Below, in pieces: positions 1,592 through 11,192 of a stretch of DNA of 64,000 nt. The notes beneath the pieces were generated by a model. It had not been told where the DNA came from and ran no database searches. It worked only from the letters and a program-made list of their open reading frames with translations. Each line of letters begins with the position of its first letter. The first letter of the stretch is position 1. This DNA comes from Escherichia phage EC100. Made by a program: the position numbers and the translations under genes. The DNA is taken from the sequence record NC_105587.1; one strand, written 5' to 3'.

Positions 1592-3256
1592 TTACGCAAA
1601 GAATTTACCGTTCTTAAAGTCAATCAAAGTGCGTTGACCGTTTGCATAGGTAATTAAATGCGTTTGCGTCCAGCTTGACGCGCCAACGTTGTAACCCATA
1701 TCCAGACTACCCGCTACGCCAGCGGTATATACACCGCCGTAAATGCTGGCGGTGTGAGTGTGCCCCGTGTTTAACTTGCCCAATTTCTTAAACTGTTTAG
1801 GATTGCCACGGCTGCCGTTAATGCCATTGTGACCGTGTACGCCACATTCAATGCCTGCAATCTTGAAAGATTGATCAGTGGTCAGGAAAATGGCGTTAAA
1901 TTCACAACCTGCAACCTTGCGCAACGCATAATCTAGCACGTTGAACGTTTCGTCGTGTTCACCGATTGCCGCATAGATTGCAGCATTCAGGCGGTGATAC
2001 AGTTCCGCGTTCGCGGGATCGTCTTTGATGTTAGCATTACGATCATCAAGCCAACGGGATAGCGCCAAATCGTGATTAGATTCAACAATGATTGTTTGAG
2101 AAAAATCACGTTCCATTGATTCCAGCACGCGCCCAGTATCGATTAGATCATCCAAAACTTTATCACGTCCGGCGGCGTATTGTTTCGCTAGGAATACACC
2201 CGATGCGCGATTGTGATGGTTGCGCGATGTAAAATCATGCACGTCATGGATAAACTGATATTTTGGTTTAAGAATATCAAGCAAACTATTATCGCCAGCC
2301 CATGACGCAACGGCACAATCATCATCTAATTTTTCCGCATGAATATCGCCATACTGCAAGCCTAAAACATGCCCCGATGTCTCATAACATCCGGCGGGAG
2401 TAGCGCACACATTCAGATCATAAAACACCCCGCTTTCGTCCATTGTTTCAAGCTGGCGAACAAAAAATTCCCCATCCTCGTCGAACTCAACAATCAGCGC
2501 ACCGAAGTTATGCAGCGCCTCGGCCTTTTGTCCGGCTTTCTGCTGAATGTAGTTTTTGAGCGTTGCCGTTCCGGTTGAATACATACGGCGCACTACTTCA
2601 CCTTTTAAAGCTGGCACGCTTTCGGCGGTAATTTTAGCGTGACCAATCGCAAGCCCCTCAATATTGAGCGCGGTTGCAGTTTCTGCGAATCCTGAAAGCG
2701 GATAATCTGCGGTGGGCAAAACATTAATTTCAGCCATGAAAGCAAAACGGCGGTTATTTAAAAACACGTTTTTGCTGCAAATATATTTATCAAAAGCGGA
2801 ATCGTATTTAATACCGTCCGCACCTTCTCCATTCTGGAAGCCGTTTTTATTATAAATATACTTAGAAACAAGCAAATCAGCACCGATATATTCAGCGAAT
2901 TTTTCCAGACTTGCTAAAAAGTTTTTATGCGGGAAAGTATTATTCTGAATCGACGTAATAATAAAGCGTTTACCCTGTTTTACTTCCCATTGCTCAACCG
3001 TACTAGAAACAATTCCCGCCGCTTCTGGGCGCTCATCGTTTTTAATGGCTTTTGCTACTTTTGCCGCTTTCGGTTTAGCTGGTTTATTTGCTTCCAGCCA
3101 GTCGCAGATAGCGGTTGAATGCTTCGTTGTATCGTAGACCGCTTTTGATATATCGTCGCAGACTTCCAGTTTAGTAGCGCGCAGACGTTTACCATAGAAA
3201 TTAAAGTCAGCGGCCATTTTCAGGATAACAGTTTGCTTTTCTGCGGAAATAATCAT
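1592..3256 (-). CDS. A1: pre-early protein A1 (metallophosphatase-fold nuclease)
   Basis: 554 aa; calcineurin-like motifs 'GDIHAEKLD', 'GVHGHNG', 'GHTHTASIYGG'; size/position as T5 A1. Confidence 0.8.
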   Translation of the reverse strand: MIISAEKQTVILKMAADFNFYGKRLRATKLEVCDDISKAVYDTTKHSTAICDWLEANKPAKPKAAKVAKAIKNDERPEAAGIVSSTVEQWEVKQGKRFIITSIQNNTFPHKNFLASLEKFAEYIGADLLVSKYIYNKNGFQNGEGADGIKYDSAFDKYICSKNVFLNNRRFAFMAEINVLPTADYPLSGFAETATALNIEGLAIGHAKITAESVPALKGEVVRRMYSTGTATLKNYIQQKAGQKAEALHNFGALIVEFDEDGEFFVRQLETMDESGVFYDLNVCATPAGCYETSGHVLGLQYGDIHAEKLDDDCAVASWAGDNSLLDILKPKYQFIHDVHDFTSRNHHNRASGVFLAKQYAAGRDKVLDDLIDTGRVLESMERDFSQTIIVESNHDLALSRWLDDRNANIKDDPANAELYHRLNAAIYAAIGEHDETFNVLDYALRKVAGCEFNAIFLTTDQSFKIAGIECGVHGHNGINGSRGNPKQFKKLGKLNTGHTHTASIYGGVYTAGVAGSLDMGYNVGASSWTQTHLITYANGQRTLIDFKNGKFFA

Positions 3257-3346
3257 AGTAATAAAACTCCATTAAAGGGATTAGATTAATAATGGCAATA
3301 TTGCCAAATATAACGCCTCGAATAATAGGCGTTATAATTTGCAACA

Positions 3347-3544
3347 TTAATTTAAAGGCATCAGGCTAGAACTAACACCACAAGCAACGGCGGCAATAAA
3401 ACAAATCAGACCTAAACGCTTCGCTAACTTAGATTTACGTTTAAAATAATACGAATCTAAATCATTTTGAAAATAAGCGAATAATAGGGAGGCCGCCATA
3501 ATAAATAAGCCTAGAATTAAAGATTCAGTAGGGAAGAAAACCAT
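3347..3544 (-). CDS. small membrane protein
   Basis: 65 aa, two hydrophobic helices. Confidence 0.4.
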   Translation of the reverse strand: MVFFPTESLILGLFIMAASLLFAYFQNDLDSYYFKRKSKLAKRLGLICFIAAVACGVSSSLMPLN

Positions 3545-3598
3545 TTTTAAAACTCCTGATTTAAGGGAAGAAAATAACTATCGCTAAACAGTTATATT

Positions 3599-3623
3599 AT
3601 TGCCCCCTCACTAGAAGGGGGCA
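3599..3623 (-). terminator. hairpin terminator downstream of A2
   Basis: 9-bp stem TTGCCCCCT/AGGGGGCAA. Confidence 0.45.
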
Positions 3624-3634
3624 AGGTATAACTA

Positions 3635-4042
3635 TTATTCACCTGCGGCTTGTTTTACTTCATCTGCAACGCCTAACAGTTGCGCCACCGCGTCCAGCGT
3701 TTCCAGTTTAGCACTTTCAAGGCTTGCCAGATCATCGGCGTCTTTGATAATGCCGGAATCAATAGCATGTTTAGCGATAACGCGTACATAATGCGCTTTA
3801 CGGATTGAACTACCGCCGCCAACTTTGCGCGGCTTATCGCTTTTTTGATATGCTTTCGCGCTGGTCAATTTTGACCGAACGGATACAGGAGAAGCCGCGC
3901 CTACTGCTTTTGCAATCTCTTTCAGGCCGTCGCTATTTGCAAAATCTAAACCGTTTTCATTAATTAACTGCTGATACATGGAAACAGCTTTCTGAGTGTT
4001 TTCTTCATTCCATGCGAATTTTGCGGTTTTAGCGTTAGTCAT
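3635..4042 (-). CDS. A2: pre-early protein A2 (putative DNA-binding)
   Basis: 135 aa, immediately upstream of A1 in same orientation; shares leader motif with dmp and A1. Confidence 0.6.
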   Translation of the reverse strand: MTNAKTAKFAWNEENTQKAVSMYQQLINENGLDFANSDGLKEIAKAVGAASPVSVRSKLTSAKAYQKSDKPRKVGGGSSIRKAHYVRVIAKHAIDSGIIKDADDLASLESAKLETLDAVAQLLGVADEVKQAAGE

Positions 4043-4139
4043 GATAAAACTCCTATTAGTTTAATTTAAGGGATTAGATTAACTTAATGTTAATCGTTAT
4101 ATCCCCCTGAAATAAGAGGGATATAAAGTTAGCACTAAA

Positions 4140-4391
4140 TTATAAAACAGCTTCCCATTTTTCGTTGCGTTGAACAACCTTTACAACATCGCCGGATTTA
4201 ACGCGAACGCTAAAAACGGGTTTGCTGTTGTTACTGCGTTCCGTTTCAGCGTATACCGCGTCGATTGTATCAAACGGCATAAGCGCCGCGCCTTTAATAC
4301 GTTCGGCTTTTCCGGTTAATTCATCCGTTTTAGTAACGAAAGGAATAAAAACGGATTGACCAATTTTAGGCGCGGTAATAACGTTTTGCAT
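4140..4391 (-). CDS. hypothetical protein
   Basis: 83-aa ORF with AGGAG RBS. Confidence 0.5.
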   Translation of the reverse strand: MQNVITAPKIGQSVFIPFVTKTDELTGKAERIKGAALMPFDTIDAVYAETERSNNSKPVFSVRVKSGDVVKVVQRNEKWEAVL

Positions 4392-4617
4392 AATATAAAC
4401 TCCTAGTTATTTGGGGATTGTTCCGCATTACCTGCTAGAAAGTAGCAGGTAATAAGTAACAATCCGCTCGCCAATATAATCAATTTAAAGAACTCCACGT
4501 AGGCCGCTATATCCCGTTAGGGGGCGGGATGCTTTATGGTAAGCACCGACCGTCAAATTTTATCAAGTTATCGCTCTTTTCGAACTGGGTACATCTTAAA
4601 ACCTATCGGCTAGGCTG

Positions 4618-4821
4618 TCAAACAATTTTTTGAGATTTTTTATGATTTTCCCTCAGGTCAATCATAATGTTTCTCCAGATCATTTCTAAACCTTGCTGGC
4701 GACCTTGCAAATATTGCTTGAATCGCCATTTTACAGAATTTTGCGCTACTGTCAACAAGTTTTTTGTTTTGCTATCTAGTGCCTTGCTAGGCTTGCCAGT
4801 GATCAAAAGCGTTTGTTTCAT
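4618..4821 (-). CDS. hypothetical protein
   Basis: 67-aa ORF, weak RBS. Confidence 0.3.
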   Translation of the reverse strand: MKQTLLITGKPSKALDSKTKNLLTVAQNSVKWRFKQYLQGRQQGLEMIWRNIMIDLRENHKKSQKIV

Positions 4822-5332
4822 ATCGTCGATTCCTTATAATGAATAAGTTTACCGCCGATAGGCTTTAAGATATACCCAATTTTTAAAGAGCGTGGCGGTA
4901 AACTTCCCGCCGTGTAGTTCGTCATTGCCGCCCTACGAGATAAATAATAACAAACAACGAAAAAGGCGCAACCTTATTTTTGTAAAGAAATGTAAAGACA
5001 AACGCCACCGGACACCATGCGGCGATCTGGGCGCAGCGCATTAAAATTAAAAGAAACGGGCGCGCGATTACCACAAAATAAAGCAGATATGCAAGTAATT
5101 TTTTCATTTATATTTGCTTTGCCCTACTTGACAAAATCCAAAAAGCTCATGGCGGCGATAAACGGCTTATCCCCTTATGATGGGATGGCTAAAAACTTTA
5201 TTGCGTTCTGGAGCGTTTTAGGCCGCTTATTTTCGACTTAACAAATCATTAACATAAGCAAAATTGAAAAATAGTTTGAAAAGATCTTGACTTTTAAAAA
5301 TCAAGATCAAATGACTTATTTTATAAAATAAA

Positions 5333-5851
5333 TTAATTGACAATTCCATATTCAGCTTTTTTAATTTCAAGCCATAATAATAACTCTTGTAAATCATAAC
5401 CAGACTTACTAACACGCTTGTTAGTAATAGGATTCTTAATTTGAGCAGTCAAATAGTCACGCCCGTAATTATCACGGGGGCGAACTTTATTAACGTAAAT
5501 GTTTTTAGGGATACCATTAGCACGCTTACAGTTTTCATACTCACTAGGAGTGCGATTATAATTATTCTGCGAACTATCAACCGCGCGAAGATTCCAGATG
5601 TTATTATTACGAGTGTTACGATCAATATGGTCAATCATTAGCTCGCTATCTATACCGCCATTCATTATACAAAAGATAATTCTATGTACTTTGAATTGTC
5701 CCATGTCTAATAGTTCAACTTGCCAATAATTACCATTTAAACCACCTGCGATGGCGTGATCTTCTCGCCAACGTAAAAATGATAACGCTGTTTCATCATA
5801 ATAAAAGTAACTATTAAAAAGGTCATAGTCTATATCTTTATATTTAGGCAT
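5333..5851 (-). CDS. HNH homing endonuclease
   Basis: 172 aa; HNH motif 'IDHIDRNTRNNNIWNLRAV'. Confidence 0.7.
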   Translation of the reverse strand: MPKYKDIDYDLFNSYFYYDETALSFLRWREDHAIAGGLNGNYWQVELLDMGQFKVHRIIFCIMNGGIDSELMIDHIDRNTRNNNIWNLRAVDSSQNNYNRTPSEYENCKRANGIPKNIYVNKVRPRDNYGRDYLTAQIKNPITNKRVSKSGYDLQELLLWLEIKKAEYGIVN

Positions 5852-6040
5852 CTAATTGTTTCCTTATGTTATTACTTTAATCTCTATTATATTATATCAA
5901 AATGATTAGCAGACTAGCTAATGAGTTTTTCAGGATTAGTTAGCAGACTCATAATCACGGTAAAATCCTATTAGCCAACTAACTATATTTTACGATATAA
6001 TAACTTTATAAATTAGTTAGTGAGAAAAACTATCATTTAA

Positions 6041-6122
6041 GTTATCCACAGACTTAATCACAGCACAAAATAATTTGACACGATAGGCGGCGATATAAAG
6101 ACTTTTACACAGACTTATCCAC
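6041..6122 (+). promoter_or_regulatory. two DnaA-box-like sites (TTATCCACA)
   Basis: exact 9-mer at 6041-6049 and 6114-6122, both within ...CAGACTTATCCACAG... context. Confidence 0.5.
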
Positions 6123-6417
6123 AGCTTATTCTACTGTATAAATATACAAGGTAAAAAGGTAGTGTTAACAACTGCAATCAATTTTAAGCGGCCTAAAACG
6201 CTTTCTAACGAGCTAAATGCGGTGGGGTAATATTAAAGTAAAGCCTTCACCCGTCGCCCTGGTGGCTTCGCCGTGTTTTGCTCTTTATTGCACCGCTGCG
6301 CGGTTAGCATAAAATTAGGCGCTAGGCAAGGAGTAAAAAACATTTTCTTTTTTCTTGCCCCCAGCGAACAAATATCTATATCATTCACTCACCGATTAAC
6401 GAGGGAGGCCGAACAAA

Positions 6418-7427
6418 TGAGGCTGTATAAACCTGATAATGCCACCGTATTAAAGGGTGCATTGCGCAACCTGCTGGACGGTAGCAAGTCAACCAGCATT
6501 AAACATTTTATTAACAAGATTGAAACTACTCATCAAAACTTTTTTGATGACTATGATGCCTATGATATGGATAGTTTTTTGCCGTTGTATAAACAAGGGG
6601 CAACGCTTGTTTTATATAACCGTGATTGCCATATCTTTACAGGCAGGGGAGCAGGGCCGGATACCGATTTTATTGTTGCGCAGGGTAATAATATTGTTGC
6701 GTATCATAGCAATTCAGGCCGTCAATCATTTAATATAAATGTTTTTGAGCTTATTGGGCTTGATCTGATAAACGGACTTTCTAGCATTGAGGGATTTTTA
6801 GATGTTATCTGGAAGCATTTACCAGCTGGATGGTATAAGCCGGATAACGACGGATCTCAATATACTGGTATAATGGCTTTTGATGGCGATGGTAATTTTT
6901 TGTTACCACGGGAGTTATACCCGTATATTTATGATGGGGATATAGAAAGCGCTGGTTTTTCTTTCTGGAAAGATGAAGATCAGATTATTGACAGCGTAGA
7001 AAACCATGCTGTAAATTCTAACACTCAAAACGTTAATACTCAAACTACTGAAAACAAAGGAAAAAATACCATGACCAAGATTGCTAACATCGTTGCCGCC
7101 AATAAATCCGCTGTTGTAAACGCTGCAAAACTGGAAGCGGGTAAAATTGCATTAACTCAAATCACGAAAGTAGCGGCTAAAAAAGCACCGTTTATGATTA
7201 AAGGTTATATTGATACGCCTATCGGTCGAGTAGTAATTGCTAACCTGCTGAGTGTGGCGGTTGACCAGTACGCACCGACTAACCAAAAGGCGAAAGCGGT
7301 AGCAGGCGCGGCTATGGAAGCGGCAATGCTGGAAATGGTGCAAAGTTTTAACATCGCTGAAATGATTGATGAAATGGTGAAAGGTATTGATATTTCTACT
7401 TTTACCACTAGCACCGAAAGCGAGTAA
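6418..7427 (+). CDS. hypothetical protein
   Basis: ORF trimmed to ATG 6418 preceded by GAGGGAGG RBS; ~336 aa. Confidence 0.55.
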
Positions 7428-7436
7428 TAATATTTG

Positions 7437-7460
7437 GCGGGGATTGTTTCCCCGCTTTAC
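7437..7460 (+). terminator. rho-independent terminator
   Basis: GCGGGGA-loop-TCCCCGC then T-rich. Confidence 0.5.
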
Positions 7461-7492
7461 TATTCCCTTGTTAATTAATAGGAGGCTAATAA

Positions 7493-7987
7493 ATGGCTGA
7501 GGAAAAATACGGGTTTTCGCTAGGGGAGGAGAGCAAGGCAAAACATGATATGATCATTTTGGTCGATTGTCATACTGGCTATTGCGGTGAAGGGAATACT
7601 GAGGAATATTTTGTTCCTGCTGGTACGGATCTCGACGCTTTCGCCCATGAAATGGCTGTTGATAATGCTTCTCGTTTTGGTAGCGATGGTTACGAAGACG
7701 AAGAAACGGGCGATTGGTATGAGAATGATAATGTATATGCAAGCCTTTATCATTATCAATTAAGTAAATCCGGCACATATGTAAACGGCGGTGATCCTAT
7801 TAATTCCGTCATGAAATTAATTATTAAATATGGCGGCGTCGAGATAGTCGATAACAAAGCGGTAATATATGCAAACCGATTAAAACAGCTTGTTTATATC
7901 CCTGATAGTACCCGATGGGAGGAATATGCTGTTTTGCATGATGAATTAAAACGATGTTTCAATATTGAAACCTTACAAGTAGTTTAA
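7493..7987 (+). CDS. hypothetical protein
   Basis: 164 aa; AGGAGG RBS; followed by terminator. Confidence 0.55.
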   Translation: MAEEKYGFSLGEESKAKHDMIILVDCHTGYCGEGNTEEYFVPAGTDLDAFAHEMAVDNASRFGSDGYEDEETGDWYENDNVYASLYHYQLSKSGTYVNGGDPINSVMKLIIKYGGVEIVDNKAVIYANRLKQLVYIPDSTRWEEYAVLHDELKRCFNIETLQVV

Positions 7988-8000
7988 TGTAAAGTTTTGT

Positions 8001-8028
8001 AAAGGCCGCCTCTTATGGCGGCCTTTTT
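8001..8028 (+). terminator. rho-independent terminator
   Basis: AGGCCGCC-TCTTA-GGCGGCCT then TTTTTTGTT. Confidence 0.65.
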
Positions 8029-8094
8029 TGTTATAATGCCCTTACACCGTTTGAGGACGGTTGAAAATTTTCCCAAAAATTTTGGAGGCTTATA

Positions 8095-8325
8095 ATGGTT
8101 GCTTATTCTTCTTCTGACGCTCTTTTCACTGGAAAAGGTTGGGTATCAAATCGCTGGATCATTCAAGAAATGGTGCAAGAATACGGCATTGCTAAAACTT
8201 ACACTACCATTCAGGCGCTTTATGATAATGATCAAATCGATCAGCAAACGGCGGGCTTTTTACTGGATACCCTGAAGGCGGAACACTGTACTAAAAAACA
8301 AGCCGCAAAAATTATTTTAATGTAA
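8095..8325 (+). CDS. hypothetical protein
   Basis: 76 aa, GGAGG RBS. Confidence 0.5.
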   Translation: MVAYSSSDALFTGKGWVSNRWIIQEMVQEYGIAKTYTTIQALYDNDQIDQQTAGFLLDTLKAEHCTKKQAAKIILM

Positions 8326-8371
8326 CTAATAACGGGGCGTTACTTTCGCCCCACTAACTAGGGGAATAAAA

Positions 8372-8518
8372 ATGGTTATTTTTCGAGCTATTCTAGCAGG
8401 TATCTTGGGCGCTATTTTATCCTTTTTTGCTATAGCTTTCGACGTTCACGCGGTTATTATTGGTGCGGGTATCGCTGTTTTTTCTTATTTGCTGGGCTGC
8501 ATGAATAAAGGAGAATAA
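8372..8518 (+). CDS. tiny membrane protein
   Basis: 48-aa hydrophobic ORF (below ORF-track cutoff), GGGGAA RBS. Confidence 0.35.
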   Translation: MVIFRAILAGILGAILSFFAIAFDVHAVIIGAGIAVFSYLLGCMNKGE

Positions 8519-8520
8519 AA

Positions 8521-8733
8521 ATGATTCGTAACGTTTCCCTTGCTCGTTCAAAGGGTTTTAAGCTGGTGGACGTTAACACGTTCGAGCGGGAAGATTGTAA
8601 AATCGAATATGTAGCACGGAATAAAAACGCCTTTCGTGTTACAGAAAAGAGATTCGATAAGCGCGGCAACGTGATAGCTGAAACGGTTAAATATTTTGCC
8701 ACCTTTTACGCGGCCTTTCGTGGGGTGCTATGA
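8521..8733 (+). CDS. hypothetical protein
   Basis: 70 aa, start abuts previous stop. Confidence 0.45.
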   Translation: MIRNVSLARSKGFKLVDVNTFEREDCKIEYVARNKNAFRVTEKRFDKRGNVIAETVKYFATFYAAFRGVL

Positions 8734-8855
8734 AAAGCGTTGTTATTATTATCCTTGCAATGGTTGGCGGTTTTACCGCCACCTTATTTAAGAATGATCC
8801 CCTTTTACTGGGGATTTTTATGCTTTTATCTGGTTACCTGATTGGGAGGTTATAA
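8730..8855 (+). CDS. tiny membrane protein
   Basis: 41-aa hydrophobic ORF, ATG overlaps upstream stop (ATGA). Confidence 0.35.
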   Translation: MKSVVIIILAMVGGFTATLFKNDPLLLGIFMLLSGYLIGRL

Positions 8856-8856
8856 A

Positions 8857-9201
8857 ATGGTAATTTATGAGGGCAATCGCTTTGTTGCTAATTGCCGCCC
8901 GGCATTATTAGCAAACTACTTAAATCAGCTTTCACCTGAATATAAAGGCGTCATAAATATTTACGAGGGAAAGGCGCATTATAAGATCAACGCGGTCGTT
9001 GCCCGTGAACTAGCATTTCAATTTTTGACCTTCGCATCTTGTGATATTCAGGTCATGGGTGAGGCGTTAATTGCAGAAAATGAAGACGATTTTATTAATA
9101 TTTTTCGCAAGGTGTGCACCGAGCGCCTGATCATGAAAGGCGCGTATATTCAGTCAACTGCGGAAAGTATTGAAACAGCATTTAGGAAGGTGGCGCAATG
9201 A
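8857..9201 (+). CDS. hypothetical protein
   Basis: ORF trimmed to ATG 8857 (GGGAGG RBS). Confidence 0.5.
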   Translation: MVIYEGNRFVANCRPALLANYLNQLSPEYKGVINIYEGKAHYKINAVVARELAFQFLTFASCDIQVMGEALIAENEDDFINIFRKVCTERLIMKGAYIQSTAESIETAFRKVAQ

Positions 9202-9356
9202 AAAAAATTTTGATAGCTGGTATGTTTCCTTTGTTGCCTTATGTAATTTGCTGGGCTTTATATGCTCATGGTGCTAGTGTTCCCGGTGTGGCTTCATTTG
9301 GTGTATCGGCTGGTTTTCTAACCGGACTATTGGCAAGCGTATATTTACGCAAATAA
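9198..9356 (+). CDS. tiny membrane protein
   Basis: 52-aa hydrophobic ORF, ATG overlaps upstream stop. Confidence 0.35.
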   Translation: MKKILIAGMFPLLPYVICWALYAHGASVPGVASFGVSAGFLTGLLASVYLRK

Positions 9357-9374
9357 TTAATAACGGGAGTTATT

Positions 9375-9569
9375 ATGAGCAATAAAATTATTGTGACCAA
9401 AACTAGTACAATGGTTGATGTTTTTTACGTGCCCGATACGCCGGAAAACCGACAAGCGGTCGAGCGTGGCGAGTATGATAAAGTGATTTATGATCACGAT
9501 GGTTATTACCAGTATTTGGTCGATTCCTACGGGGAGGAGGAGAAGATCACGCATCAATTACCGGACTGA
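9375..9569 (+). CDS. hypothetical protein
   Basis: 64 aa, GGGAG RBS, followed by terminator. Confidence 0.5.
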   Translation: MSNKIIVTKTSTMVDVFYVPDTPENRQAVERGEYDKVIYDHDGYYQYLVDSYGEEEKITHQLPD

Positions 9570-9575
9570 CAACAA

Positions 9576-9598
9576 GCGGGGAGCAGATCCCCGTTTTT
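9576..9598 (+). terminator. rho-independent terminator ending + strand operon
   Basis: CGGGGA-GCAGA-TCCCCG then TTTTTC. Confidence 0.6.
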
Positions 9599-9750
9599 CA
9601 GGCCTGCAATCAGATACCCCTTTGTTTTAGTATCCCCGCCAAAATTAAACGCGTTAGAATGCGATTCAGGACGTTTTAAGCCTATATTAGAATTATTCAC
9701 TGCATAGGAATACTGTATATTTATACAGTAGAATAACCTGGGGATAAGTC

Positions 9751-9820
9751 TGTGGATAACGCTTCAAAATGGCTAGGATTCTGTCAAGTCAAATCGTGCT
9801 GTTGATAAGTCTGTGGATAA
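9751..9820 (-). promoter_or_regulatory. two DnaA-box-like sites (TTATCCACA on reverse strand)
   Basis: TGTGGATAA at 9751-9759 and 9812-9820, each within an 18-nt repeat GATAAGTCTGTGGATAAC. Confidence 0.5.
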
Positions 9821-9840
9821 CTTAAATAGCAGTGTTTCTC

Positions 9841-10020
9841 ACTTCCATTTTTAAATGAGAATCATTATCATTTGCATTTCACTATCTAACCGATAATCAT
9901 TCCACTTTTTAAATGAGAATCATTTCACTTCTTGAATAATTCTCATCCCCTTTCTTAAATGCAAATCATTATCATTCGCATTTCACTTTTTAAATGAGAT
10001 TGATTCTCATTATCATTCGT
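9841..10020. repeat. degenerate tandem repeats
   Basis: three copies of TTTTTAAATGAGAATCATT and two of ATCATTATCATT(T/C)GCATTTCAC. Confidence 0.6.
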
Positions 10021-10030
10021 ATTTAGGCGA

Positions 10031-10048
10031 GCAGGGCAATTGCCCTGC
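10031..10048. repeat. perfect 18-bp palindrome
   Basis: GCAGGGCAATTGCCCTGC. Confidence 0.7.
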
Positions 10049-10053
10049 GCTTT

Positions 10054-10655
10054 TGTGCAAATCCGACAATTGCTCCAAGGGTTACGTGCTAGCGTGTATG
10101 TGCGAATCCGACAATTTTTGGTAGTGTGCAAATCCGACCCTAAAAACTTTTGTGATGTGCAAATCCGACAATGAATTTTCCTAAAAACTCCAGCAATCAC
10201 GAACTGCGTTCGAATCCTGTGGAATTAGCTAGAGTATGTGCAAATCCGACATGTGTTGAGATGTGCGAATCCGACAAGATTTTTGTGACTTCGATTGGAG
10301 GGTGTGTGATTGTATAGGTTTGAGGAGAAGATGAGAGAGCGAGAAAAATTTGAGGGGCTAGAAGGATGTGGGCGCAGGATTGGTGCGGAGCACCTGATTT
10401 GCGGGGATTTTGGGGAAGATGTAAGATAATTTGGGAAGATTTGAGATAGGTGCAGAAAAAGTGAAATTTTATTAGCAAAATGGAGCAAAATAGCTTGACA
10501 AGTGAAAATTCTTGTGGCTCTAAAAACTCAGGCAATCATGGGCCTTCGGCCCGAAATAATGCTGCCATTTTCAGAAGATTATGTGTCCATGAAAACTTAG
10601 GCGATTGTGCAAATCCGACCATAAATTTCTAGAAACACAATGTGCAAATCCGACA
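10054..10655 (+). repeat. array of eight direct 15-nt iterons (consensus ATGTGCAAATCCGACA)
   Basis: copies at ~10054, 10098, 10126, 10155, 10236, 10261, 10605, 10640, all same orientation. Confidence 0.75.
10300..10500 (+). repeat. purine-rich (GA) tract
   Basis: ~200 nt of almost exclusively G/A/T with GAGA/GGGG runs on + strand. Confidence 0.5.
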
Positions 10656-10679
10656 GTAATTTCTGGAAATGTGTTTTCA

Positions 10680-10830
10680 AAAAAATGTCTCCTAGAAATA
10701 ACCGCCCTCCCAATAACCGCCCTGTATTAAACCGCCTAGTATATGTTCCTAGAAACTTAGGAGAACCGCCCACTAGGAGTGTGGTATCTCGTGAGAACTC
10801 TGGAGTTTCTAGGAAAGTGTTGTGCCATCC
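10680..10830. repeat. short repeats (AACCGCCC x4, (T)CTAGAAA x5)
   Basis: clustered short direct repeats adjacent to the iteron array. Confidence 0.45.
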
Positions 10831-11192
10831 TAGCAGAAGAGCGGCAATAGGTGTATCATCTTGAATGTAAATTATGTGGTCAAAAGTTTTACTTTTATTT
10901 TAAATATAAGATCCCCCAGGGTTCTCATATAGAGCTTTGCCCCCGCCAGAAGGTCTCGTGATGTTTCTAGCAATTTATATTAAATTACTTATTAACTTGT
11001 CCTGTCGCTCCGTATCCTCCGCTACAAGTTAGTAATTTTAAATTACTGAACCACCACACCTTCTGTGTGGCAACTCTAAATGGTTAATTCTATTAACTCA
11101 TAGAGTTATGATAACATACATTTAGCTATCTGTCAACGAGAGTTTGTATTTGAGTCTCGGTACAGGTATTGTGCACCGAGACTTGCAGGATC

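What the first reader, a model, noticed from the sequence alone, without database searches (positions are those of the whole stretch)
5333..5851. HNH homing endonuclease in the pre-early region
A 172-aa ORF carries a clear HNH motif (IDHIDRNTRNNNIWNLRAV) between the A2 side and the DnaA-box region. A free-standing nuclease gene in the part of the genome that enters the cell first could be a mobile insertion, and could create strain-to-strain differences in this region.
Basis: partly seen in the sequence, partly recalled or inferred. Interest (0 to 1): 0.35.

Follow-up and report, generated by a model that had tools for sequence, protein, structure and literature searches.

The report
Known mobile HNH nuclease gene, T5-like phage
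This is an intact, free-standing HNH homing-endonuclease gene cassette inserted in the first-injected end of a T5-like phage genome; it is a real selfish mobile gene, but it is already annotated and its insertion polymorphism is already described, so it is an ordinary finding.

Summary
A 172-aa ORF lies at 5333-5851 on the minus strand and carries the quoted HNH motif at aa 73-91. It scores well above the Pfam HNH_3 cut-off, and its predicted fold is closest to the phage homing endonuclease I-HmuI.

The window is the left end of Escherichia phage EC105/EC104, a Tequintavirus. GenBank already calls this gene "homing endonuclease". Its positional counterpart in T5 is hegG (P-TflVII), at 56% aa identity.

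- Only about 11% of related phage records carry an HNH gene at this site, always with the same junctions. Most carry an 87-nt filler instead.
- Epseptimavirus phages share about 85-97% identity with the window over the cassette and about 100 bp on each side. Outside that tract identity is only 45-77%.
- Decayed copies exist (premature stop, frameshifts, loss of the C-terminal domain), yet dN/dS within this allele lineage is 0.08-0.35.

Published work already notes the insertion in T5 and FFH1, its absence from most relatives, and that T5 hegG is dispensable and toxic.

The modestly new points are these: same-site alleles share near-identical ORF ends but have deeply diverged cores, a second HNH insertion site lies about 340 bp to the left, and the C-terminal DNA-binding domain is AP2-like. 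Cleavage activity and target site remain untested.

The parts
5333..5851 (-). Intact 172-aa HNH endonuclease ORF (ATG 5851-5849, TAA 5335-5333), identical to GenBank URN70772.1 'homing endonuclease' of phage EC105.
5579..5635 (-). HNH (beta-beta-alpha-metal) catalytic motif IDHIDRNTRNNNIWNLRAV, aa 73-91. D74, H75, N87 and N96 are invariant in the family alignment. The region aligns without gaps to I-HmuI residues 52-116.
   Evidence: Predicted strands E72-75 and E88-91 and helix H93-96.
5336..5500 (-). C-terminal DNA-binding domain, about aa 118-172: three strands plus a helix with an AP2/ERF-like fold. The last ~47 codons are 90-95% identical at DNA level to the otherwise divergent T5/S124 alleles.
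5852..5937 (-). Cassette-borne 5' region. It holds a Shine-Dalgarno AAGGA (5865-5861), an extended -10 TGaTATAAT (5899-5891), a weak -35, and a palindrome ATTAGC-N6-GCTAAT (5905-5922). It is homologous to the promoter annotated upstream of T5 hegG.
   Evidence: Sequence read. T5 promoter annotation at 5938-6012. 90% identity to T5 here. The simple -35/-10 scan did not call this promoter.
5278..5308 (-). Terminator-like hairpin after the stop codon: an 11-bp stem followed by UUUUC.
   Evidence: RNA fold -14 kcal/mol, z=-2.56. Sequence. HEG-less genomes of the EC148 type carry a different hairpin at this position.
5342..5937 (.). HEG-specific segment, absent from HEG-less relatives, which carry an unrelated 87-nt filler instead. 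The left junction falls right after TTAATTGAC (5333-5341), so the ORF's last codons and stop lie in backbone sequence. The right junction is at 5935-5940.
   Evidence: Alignments. BLAST break-points. Filler sequence. Junction searches.
5230..6030 (.). Approximate tract shared at 85-97% identity with the Epseptimavirus phages bux and KKP_3831, while adjacent backbone is 45-77% identical. This is the inferred horizontally transferred or co-converted segment.
   Evidence: Sliding identity profile. GC falls to 31-32% over 5250-6249, against about 40% around it.

Best explanation
This is a free-standing homing endonuclease gene (HEG), a selfish, self-contained cassette made of its own promoter and Shine-Dalgarno sequence, a 172-aa ORF and a hairpin terminator. 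It is inserted in the non-coding repeat region of the terminal repeat of a T5-like phage. It lies between the leftward pre-early genes (A1, A2 and neighbours) and the DnaA-box-bearing inverted repeat IRC-spacer-IRD.

The protein is an I-HmuI-like HNH (beta-beta-alpha-metal) nuclease. The catalytic motif (D74/H75...N96) follows an N-terminal beta-sheet, and a short helical linker joins it to an AP2-like C-terminal DNA-binding domain.

The inferred mechanism is as follows. The enzyme is transcribed from the first-injected DNA. In a mixed infection with a relative that lacks the gene, it binds a long asymmetric site at or near the empty locus and nicks or cuts it. Recombinational repair from the HEG-carrying genome then copies the cassette and about 100-300 bp of flanking DNA into the recipient.

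Shown here: the ORF, domain, fold and conserved catalytic residues; purifying selection; sporadic distribution with constant junctions; a cross-genus high-identity tract; and decayed copies. Inferred only: nuclease activity, nick versus double-strand cut, the target site, pre-early timing of expression, and homing itself.
For: - Sporadic presence: a query spanning the HEG 5' end, promoter and right flank is covered >=80% in 44 of 387 matching records; the rest match only the flank. The empty-site sequence is covered >=80% in 166 records and about 67% in many Epseptimavirus records. Flank-spacing sampling shows about 1060-1195 bp without the gene against about 1450-1620 bp with it.
- Constant junctions.
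- Transfer across genera: bux and KKP_3831 are 85-97% identical over 5233-6030 but 45-77% outside.
- Functional constraint: pairwise dN/dS is 0.08-0.35 among six alleles of this lineage.
- HEG life-cycle decay: bux has a stop at codon 95, P0006 and P0012 are frameshifted, and the SenI1 copy lacks the C-terminal domain.
- Literature: Davison 2020 says the HNH insertion splits Repeat Regions 1 and 2 in T5, Shivani and FFH1 and is absent from most T5-like phages (bioRxiv 10.1101/866236). A 2026 preprint finds T5 hegG dispensable, toxic in E. coli with a compacted nucleoid, and present in <15% of Demerecviridae (bioRxiv 10.64898/2026.04.02.716235).
Against: - No enzymatic or genetic data exist for this allele. 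It is only 56% identical to T5 HegG, so the T5 results transfer imperfectly.
- No recognition site can be named.
- The empty sites are not clean deletions: an 87-nt filler replaces the cassette, and the flanks also come in different haplotypes. The history therefore involves more than one simple insertion.
- Spc35 and Shivani carry the HEG-associated left-flank haplotype without the gene at this site. This fits loss as well as gain.
- The promoter is inferred from homology to a T5 annotation and from an extended -10. The consensus scan did not call it.
- The record counts include GenBank/RefSeq duplicates.
Confidence: 0.8

Rival explanations
1. The gene is a domesticated host-takeover nuclease. 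The pre-early HNH enzyme damages or nicks host DNA to help shut the host down, and it is kept because it benefits the phage rather than because it is selfish.
For: The gene sits among pre-early host-takeover genes. Ectopic T5 hegG is toxic and causes nucleoid supercompaction, a sign of DNA damage (preprint 10.64898/2026.04.02.716235). dN/dS is below 1.
Against: Only about 11% of related records have it, and <15% of Demerecviridae according to the preprint. T5 lacking hegG is viable, hegG expression did not degrade chromosomal DNA, and A1 alone accounts for host DNA degradation. Decayed copies are common. Toxicity on over-expression is usual for homing endonucleases.
Confidence: 0.08
2. The gene is an exclusion weapon rather than a copier. 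The enzyme cuts the first-injected DNA of co-infecting HEG-less relatives and mainly eliminates them (marker exclusion), with little gene conversion.
For: The locus and its likely target are both in first-step-transfer DNA, which is the only part of a competitor genome in the cell early on. Phage-encoded recombination functions lie in later-entering DNA (general T5 knowledge).
Against: The cross-genus identity tract confined to the cassette and its short flanks is what copying by repair leaves behind; pure killing would not leave it. Exclusion and homing are also not mutually exclusive.
Confidence: 0.07
3. The gene is an inactive relic: a once-mobile gene that is now non-functional and merely carried along.
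For: Several relatives carry broken copies. The HEG life cycle predicts decay after fixation.
Against: In the window the ORF is full length and all family-invariant catalytic residues are present. dN/dS against close alleles is 0.09-0.35. The promoter, Shine-Dalgarno sequence and terminator are intact.
Confidence: 0.04
4. The gene encodes the enzyme that makes the characteristic single-strand interruptions of T5-type virion DNA.
For: I-HmuI-type HNH enzymes are nickases (recalled from the I-HmuI literature). T5 and BF23 genomes carry specific nicks.
Against: Nicks are described for T5 and BF23, and from general knowledge they are taken to be a group trait. This gene is absent from about 89% of relatives. 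T5 lacking hegG is viable.
Confidence: 0.01

Closest known systems
T5 hegG (T5.010, putative H-N-H endonuclease P-TflVII) and the FFH1 ORF9 allele
   Same: Same insertion site, orientation, promoter and 5'UTR, and terminator. The ORF is also 172 aa, and the first ~27 and last ~47 codons are nearly identical. FFH1 ORF9 is the same allele as the window, at 96.5% aa identity. The insertion polymorphism is already described.
   Different: Identity to T5 HegG is only 56% aa overall. The central ~350 nt is 42-58% identical at DNA level. There is a 7-8-residue shorter N-terminal beta region (aa 29-50) and a different linker, so DNA specificity probably differs.
I-HmuI (PDB 1U3E), the intron-encoded HNH nicking homing endonuclease of Bacillus phage SPO1
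   Same: Nearly the same size (174 aa). The N-terminal beta-sheet plus HNH motif sit at the same residue numbers. It is the only PDB sequence hit and the best fold hit.
   Different: The window gene is free-standing, not intron-encoded. Its C-terminal DNA-binding module is AP2-like (three strands plus a helix), not the helix-turn-helix recalled for I-HmuI. Sequence identity is about 20%.
HNH-AP2 endonucleases of phages and cyanobacteria (Pfam HNH_3 + AP2 architecture)
   Different: Pfam AP2 is not detectable in the window protein itself. The link rests on structure prediction and on one bridging homolog.
Free-standing HEGs of T-even phages (mobE, segB and similar) and the characterised T5 enzymes F-TflI/II/IV
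   Same: They are intergenic, self-promoted and sporadically distributed, they create mosaic boundaries, and they are non-essential.
   Different: Those in T5 lie in the tRNA/early region, whereas this one lies in the duplicated terminal repeat that is injected first. The seg genes are GIY-YIG enzymes, not HNH.

Membership tests
HNH / His-Me finger nucleases (Pfam HNH_3) | Profile match above the curated threshold | tested here: met
   46.3 bits against a 24.8 cut-off, aa 54-97.
HNH / His-Me finger nucleases (Pfam HNH_3) | Catalytic His and metal-ligand Asp/Asn residues conserved | tested here: met
   D74, H75, N87 and N96 are invariant in the 12-sequence alignment. The gap-free alignment to I-HmuI places them on the same residue numbers. 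The roles of I-HmuI D74/H75/N96 are recalled from the literature and were not re-checked.
HNH / His-Me finger nucleases (Pfam HNH_3) | Beta-beta-alpha-metal fold | tested here: met
HNH / His-Me finger nucleases (Pfam HNH_3) | Metal-dependent nuclease activity | not testable with these tools
   Needs biochemistry. The only indirect evidence is the toxicity of the 56%-identical T5 HegG.
Free-standing homing endonuclease gene | Not inside an intron or intein, and has its own expression signals | tested here: met
   The gene is intergenic. It has a Shine-Dalgarno sequence, an extended -10 and a hairpin terminator. The homologous T5 promoter is annotated.
Free-standing homing endonuclease gene | Sporadic presence among close relatives at one site with fixed junctions | tested here: met
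   44 of 387 records carry it, against 166+ empty sites. Junctions are shown.
Free-standing homing endonuclease gene | Horizontal spread with co-conversion of short flanks (gene more similar than the backbone) | tested here: met
   bux and KKP_3831 (Epseptimavirus) are 85-97% identical over 5233-6030 and 45-77% outside.
Free-standing homing endonuclease gene | Cleaves the HEG-less allele near the insertion site while its own genome is immune | not testable with these tools
   The target is unknown. The filler and flanks do differ between HEG-plus and HEG-less genomes.
Free-standing homing endonuclease gene | Super-Mendelian inheritance in mixed infection | not testable with these tools
   Needs phage crosses.
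I-HmuI-type homing endonucleases | N-terminal beta-sheet plus HNH core, collinear with I-HmuI | tested here: met
I-HmuI-type homing endonucleases | C-terminal helix-turn-helix DNA-binding domain and an intron-encoded gene | tested here: not met
   The C-terminal domain is predicted as three strands plus a helix and matches AP2/Tn916-Int-N folds. The gene is free-standing. It works like I-HmuI but is not a strict family member.
HNH-AP2 endonucleases | Recognisable AP2 domain C-terminal to HNH_3 | tested here: inconclusive

The most novel reading that the evidence does not exclude
The site may host competing HNH alleles that displace one another. At least three full-length allele types (EC105/FFH1, T5/S124, SH9) share near-identical promoter and N-terminal ends and C-terminal and terminator ends. 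Their cores, which include the DNA-contacting N-terminal sheet and the linker, are only 42-58% identical. The conserved ORF ends could act as built-in homology arms, so an enzyme that cuts a rival allele's core, or the empty site, replaces it with its own. The gene is expressed from first-step-transfer DNA and its target lies in that same DNA. The contest would therefore be decided while only 8% of each co-infecting genome is inside the cell, which might also break and exclude the rival before second-step transfer.
Probability: 0.12. Interest if true: 0.5.

Novelty: already known. Interest (0 to 1): 0.18.

Why it matters
The finding mainly serves as a correct annotation. The gene explains a presence/absence polymorphism and a local mosaic boundary in the pre-early region of T5-like phages. 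It also splits a repeat region next to the DnaA-box inverted repeat that has been implicated in the injection stop.

It has modest practical value. The enzyme is a candidate site-specific nickase or nuclease. EC105 (HEG-plus) and EC148 (HEG-less) are listed with the same source (bird faeces, Denmark) and consecutive GenBank accessions, so they make a ready natural pair for testing homing inside first-step-transfer DNA.

Nothing here challenges current understanding.

Tried and rejected
- **Paralogs in the window:** phmmer of the protein against all stop-to-stop ORFs of 60 aa or more found only the gene itself. There is no local family expansion.
- **Structured RNA on either strand:** an Rfam scan of 3000-11000 found nothing at the locus. 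The only hits were sub-threshold, near 7900-8100.
- **Promoter scan:** the simple sigma-70 scan did not call the HEG promoter. The promoter is inferred from the T5 annotation and an extended -10.
- **Repeat motif:** TTAGCAGACT occurs twice next to the cassette, but window-wide counts with one mismatch are not above chance: 8 observed against 5.3 expected.
- **Davison 2015 review (PMC4743489):** it was not available in the library.
- **Genome-nickase idea:** rejected because of the distribution.
- **Main host-DNA-degrading nuclease:** rejected because of the 2026 preprint.
- **Opposite-strand ORFs:** the plus-strand ORFs inside the gene (5441-5641 and 5598-5729) have no support and were not pursued.

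Full report
**What the window is**

Bases 4000-7500 are 100% identical to Escherichia phages EC105 and EC104 at the same coordinates (ON185582, ON185581). These are Tequintavirus, Demerecviridae. They are about 86% identical to the left terminal repeat of T5, which is the first-step-transfer (pre-early) DNA.

**Observation**

The ORF at 5333..5851 on the minus strand, 172 aa, is real. It contains the quoted motif at aa 73-91. Supporting scores:
- Pfam HNH_3: 46.3 bits against a cut-off of 24.8.
- PHROG 99 'HNH endonuclease': E=2.8e-30.
- PADLOC 'HEase': E=2.5e-9.

A2 lies at 3635-4042 on the minus strand. Consensus DnaA boxes lie at 6042 and 6115. They sit inside a 130-nt arm (6019-6148) that is inverted at 9714-9843. 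These arms are the IRC-spacer-IRD and IRD'-spacer-IRC' repeats of Davison's injection-stop region. GenBank already labels the gene 'homing endonuclease' (URN70772.1).

**Anatomy of the cassette, read on the minus strand**

- An A-rich stretch comes first.
- A palindrome ATTAGC-N6-GCTAAT lies at 5905-5922.
- An extended -10, TGaTATAAT, lies at 5899-5891, with only a weak -35.
- AAGGA lies 9 nt before the ATG at 5851.
- The ORF follows.
- After the TAA, an 11-bp hairpin plus UUUUC lies at 5308-5278 (-14 kcal/mol, z=-2.56).

T5 has an annotated promoter at the homologous place upstream of hegG, and this segment is 90% identical. The generic promoter scan did not call it. GC drops to 31-32% over 5250-6249, against about 40% nearby. 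No paralog exists elsewhere in the 64-kb window. No Rfam family matches at the locus.

**The protein**

phmmer against all PDB sequences finds only I-HmuI (1U3E), with residues 52-116 aligned to residues 52-116 without gaps, E=0.007. An AlphaFold2 model built from 12 homologs has mean pLDDT 85.7. Foldseek ranks I-HmuI first with probability 1.0.

D74, H75, N87 and N96 are invariant among the homologs.

The C-terminal three-strands-plus-helix unit (aa 118-167) aligns with the Pfam-detectable AP2 domain of homolog P0013. Pfam AP2 is not detectable in the window protein itself. The architecture is therefore an I-HmuI-like N-terminal sheet plus HNH core, a helical linker, and an AP2-like DNA-binding domain. 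The protein works like I-HmuI but is not a strict member of that family: it has a different C-terminal module and is not intron-encoded.

**Distribution**

Three searches bear on this.
- A megablast of the ORF finds it in only 35 phage records. In 24 of them the match is full-length at >=90% identity. In 11, only the last 142 nt match, which is the T5/S124 type.
- A query joining the ORF 5' end, the promoter and the right flank (5800-6010) is covered >=80% in 44 of 387 matching records. The rest match only from position ~136-141, i.e. from window 5935-5940.
- The empty-site sequence from EC148 is covered >=80% in 166 records and about 67% in many Epseptimavirus records.

A spread sample with concatenated flanks shows most relatives with 1060-1195 bp between flank ends. 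About nine of 47 have 1450-1620 bp and an annotated HNH gene. This agrees with a 2026 preprint that finds hegG in <15% of Demerecviridae. Counts are database records and include GenBank/RefSeq duplicates.

**Junctions**

In all genomes the sequence runs ...AAATTAATTGAC, ending at window 5341. HEG-carrying genomes continue into the ORF, so the last codons and the stop are backbone sequence. HEG-less genomes continue with an 87-nt filler and then rejoin at ATTAGCAGACT..., window ~5938.

The flanks also come in haplotypes. Two different hairpins occur on the left, and a variable repeat block occurs on the right. Spc35 and Shivani have the HEG-associated left haplotype without the gene at this site.

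**Evidence of mobility**

The Epseptimavirus phages bux and KKP_3831 carry this same allele. Their identity to the window is 85-97% over about 5233-6030 but falls to 45-77% on both sides. This is the pattern expected from transfer with short co-conversion tracts.

Within the allele lineage (EC105, FFH1, NR01, Es2, bux, KKP_3831), pairwise dN/dS is 0.08-0.35. This shows past or present constraint on the protein.

Decay also occurs:
- bux has a stop at codon 95, next to the invariant N96.
- Metagenomic P0006 and P0012 are frameshifted.
- vB_Sen_I1 retains only a 115-aa HNH core that ends in the same ...KVN* junction.

**Points not found in the papers read**

1. *Mosaic alleles at one site.* The window and T5/S124 are 90-95% identical at the ORF 3' end and terminator (5214-5410) and at the promoter and right flank (5854-6010). 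They are only 42-58% identical in the core at 5454-5770, apart from 67-70% at the HNH motif. Overall aa identity to T5 HegG is 56%. Other homologs recombine the modules differently. For example, P0008 and P0011 have the window-type HNH core with a T5-type N-terminal sheet and another C-terminal region.
2. *A second insertion site.* In Shivani, SSP1 and SHSML-45, a 113-aa HNH gene with a similar promoter sits at the equivalent of window 4996-5046, about 340 bp to the left. Their right-hand site is empty. Davison 2020 grouped Shivani with T5 and FFH1.

**Literature**

- Davison 2020 states that the HNH gene insertion separates Repeat Regions 1 and 2 and is absent from most T5-like phages.
- The 2026 preprint shows that T5 lacking hegG-017 is viable. 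Ectopic hegG is toxic with nucleoid supercompaction. It does not degrade chromosomal DNA, whereas A1 does.

**Verdict**

The best explanation is a selfish free-standing HNH homing endonuclease cassette, confidence about 0.8. The rivals are a domesticated host-damage nuclease, a pure exclusion weapon, an inactive relic and the genome nickase. Each is less likely, for the reasons given in its entry.

The same allele in FFH1 is explicitly discussed in the literature, and the gene is annotated as a homing endonuclease. Interest is low. The only speculative extension is allele displacement and competition played out within first-step-transfer DNA.

Noticed in passing
window 4996-5046 (equivalent position); L006 467-914, L004, L007: Shivani, SSP1 and SHSML-45 carry a different, 113-aa HNH gene with a similar promoter at a second site about 340 bp left of the window's cassette. 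Their right-hand site is empty. Davison 2020 treated Shivani's insertion as the same one as in T5 and FFH1.
   Followed up: partly
window 5454-5770 versus 5214-5410 and 5854-6010: Same-site HNH alleles (EC105 against T5/S124/SH9) are 90-95% identical at both ORF ends but 42-58% identical in the core. This implies recombination break-points inside the ORF and module shuffling among alleles.
   Followed up: partly
window 6019-6148 and 9714-9843: A 130-nt inverted repeat (78% complementary) carries paired DnaA boxes at 6042, 6115, 9751 and 9812. It corresponds to the IRC-spacer-IRD and IRD'-spacer-IRC' repeats of the proposed injection stop signal. The cassette ends 81 bp to the left of the first arm.
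   Followed up: partly
window 5197-5229 and 6185-6217: A 33-nt inverted repeat (79% complementary) brackets the HNH cassette together with the IRC-spacer-IRD arm. It would lie about 450 bp apart in HEG-less relatives.
   Followed up: no
window 5905-5922; also L006 ~860-880: A palindrome ATTAGC-N6-GCTAAT overlaps the -35 region of the HNH promoter. A version recurs upstream of the Shivani-type HNH gene at the other site (ATTAGCAATGTGGCTAAT). It may be an operator or a shared promoter element of these cassettes.
   Followed up: no
window 4922-5107 (-): A 61-aa hydrophobic ORF is not annotated in EC105 but is annotated as a hypothetical protein at the same place in NR01 and Spc35. The Shivani-type HNH insertion site falls inside it.
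   Followed up: no
L014 (Salmonella phage bux) 701-1219: The bux copy of this allele has a premature stop at codon 95, next to the invariant N96, and is annotated only as a 94-aa fragment. The near-identical KKP_3831 copy is intact.
   Followed up: yes
window 9836-10282: Dense families of short direct repeats (22-67 nt, e.g. ATGTGCAAATCCGACAAT x5) lie at the right end of the terminal-repeat untranslated region. They probably correspond to Davison's DRD/DRE repeats.
   Followed up: no
window 7950-8110: Several sub-threshold Rfam hits (STnc320, Phe_leader, GcvB, STnc430) pile up on one spot after the ORF that ends at 7987. This is most likely a terminator-like hairpin rather than any of those RNAs.
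   Followed up: no
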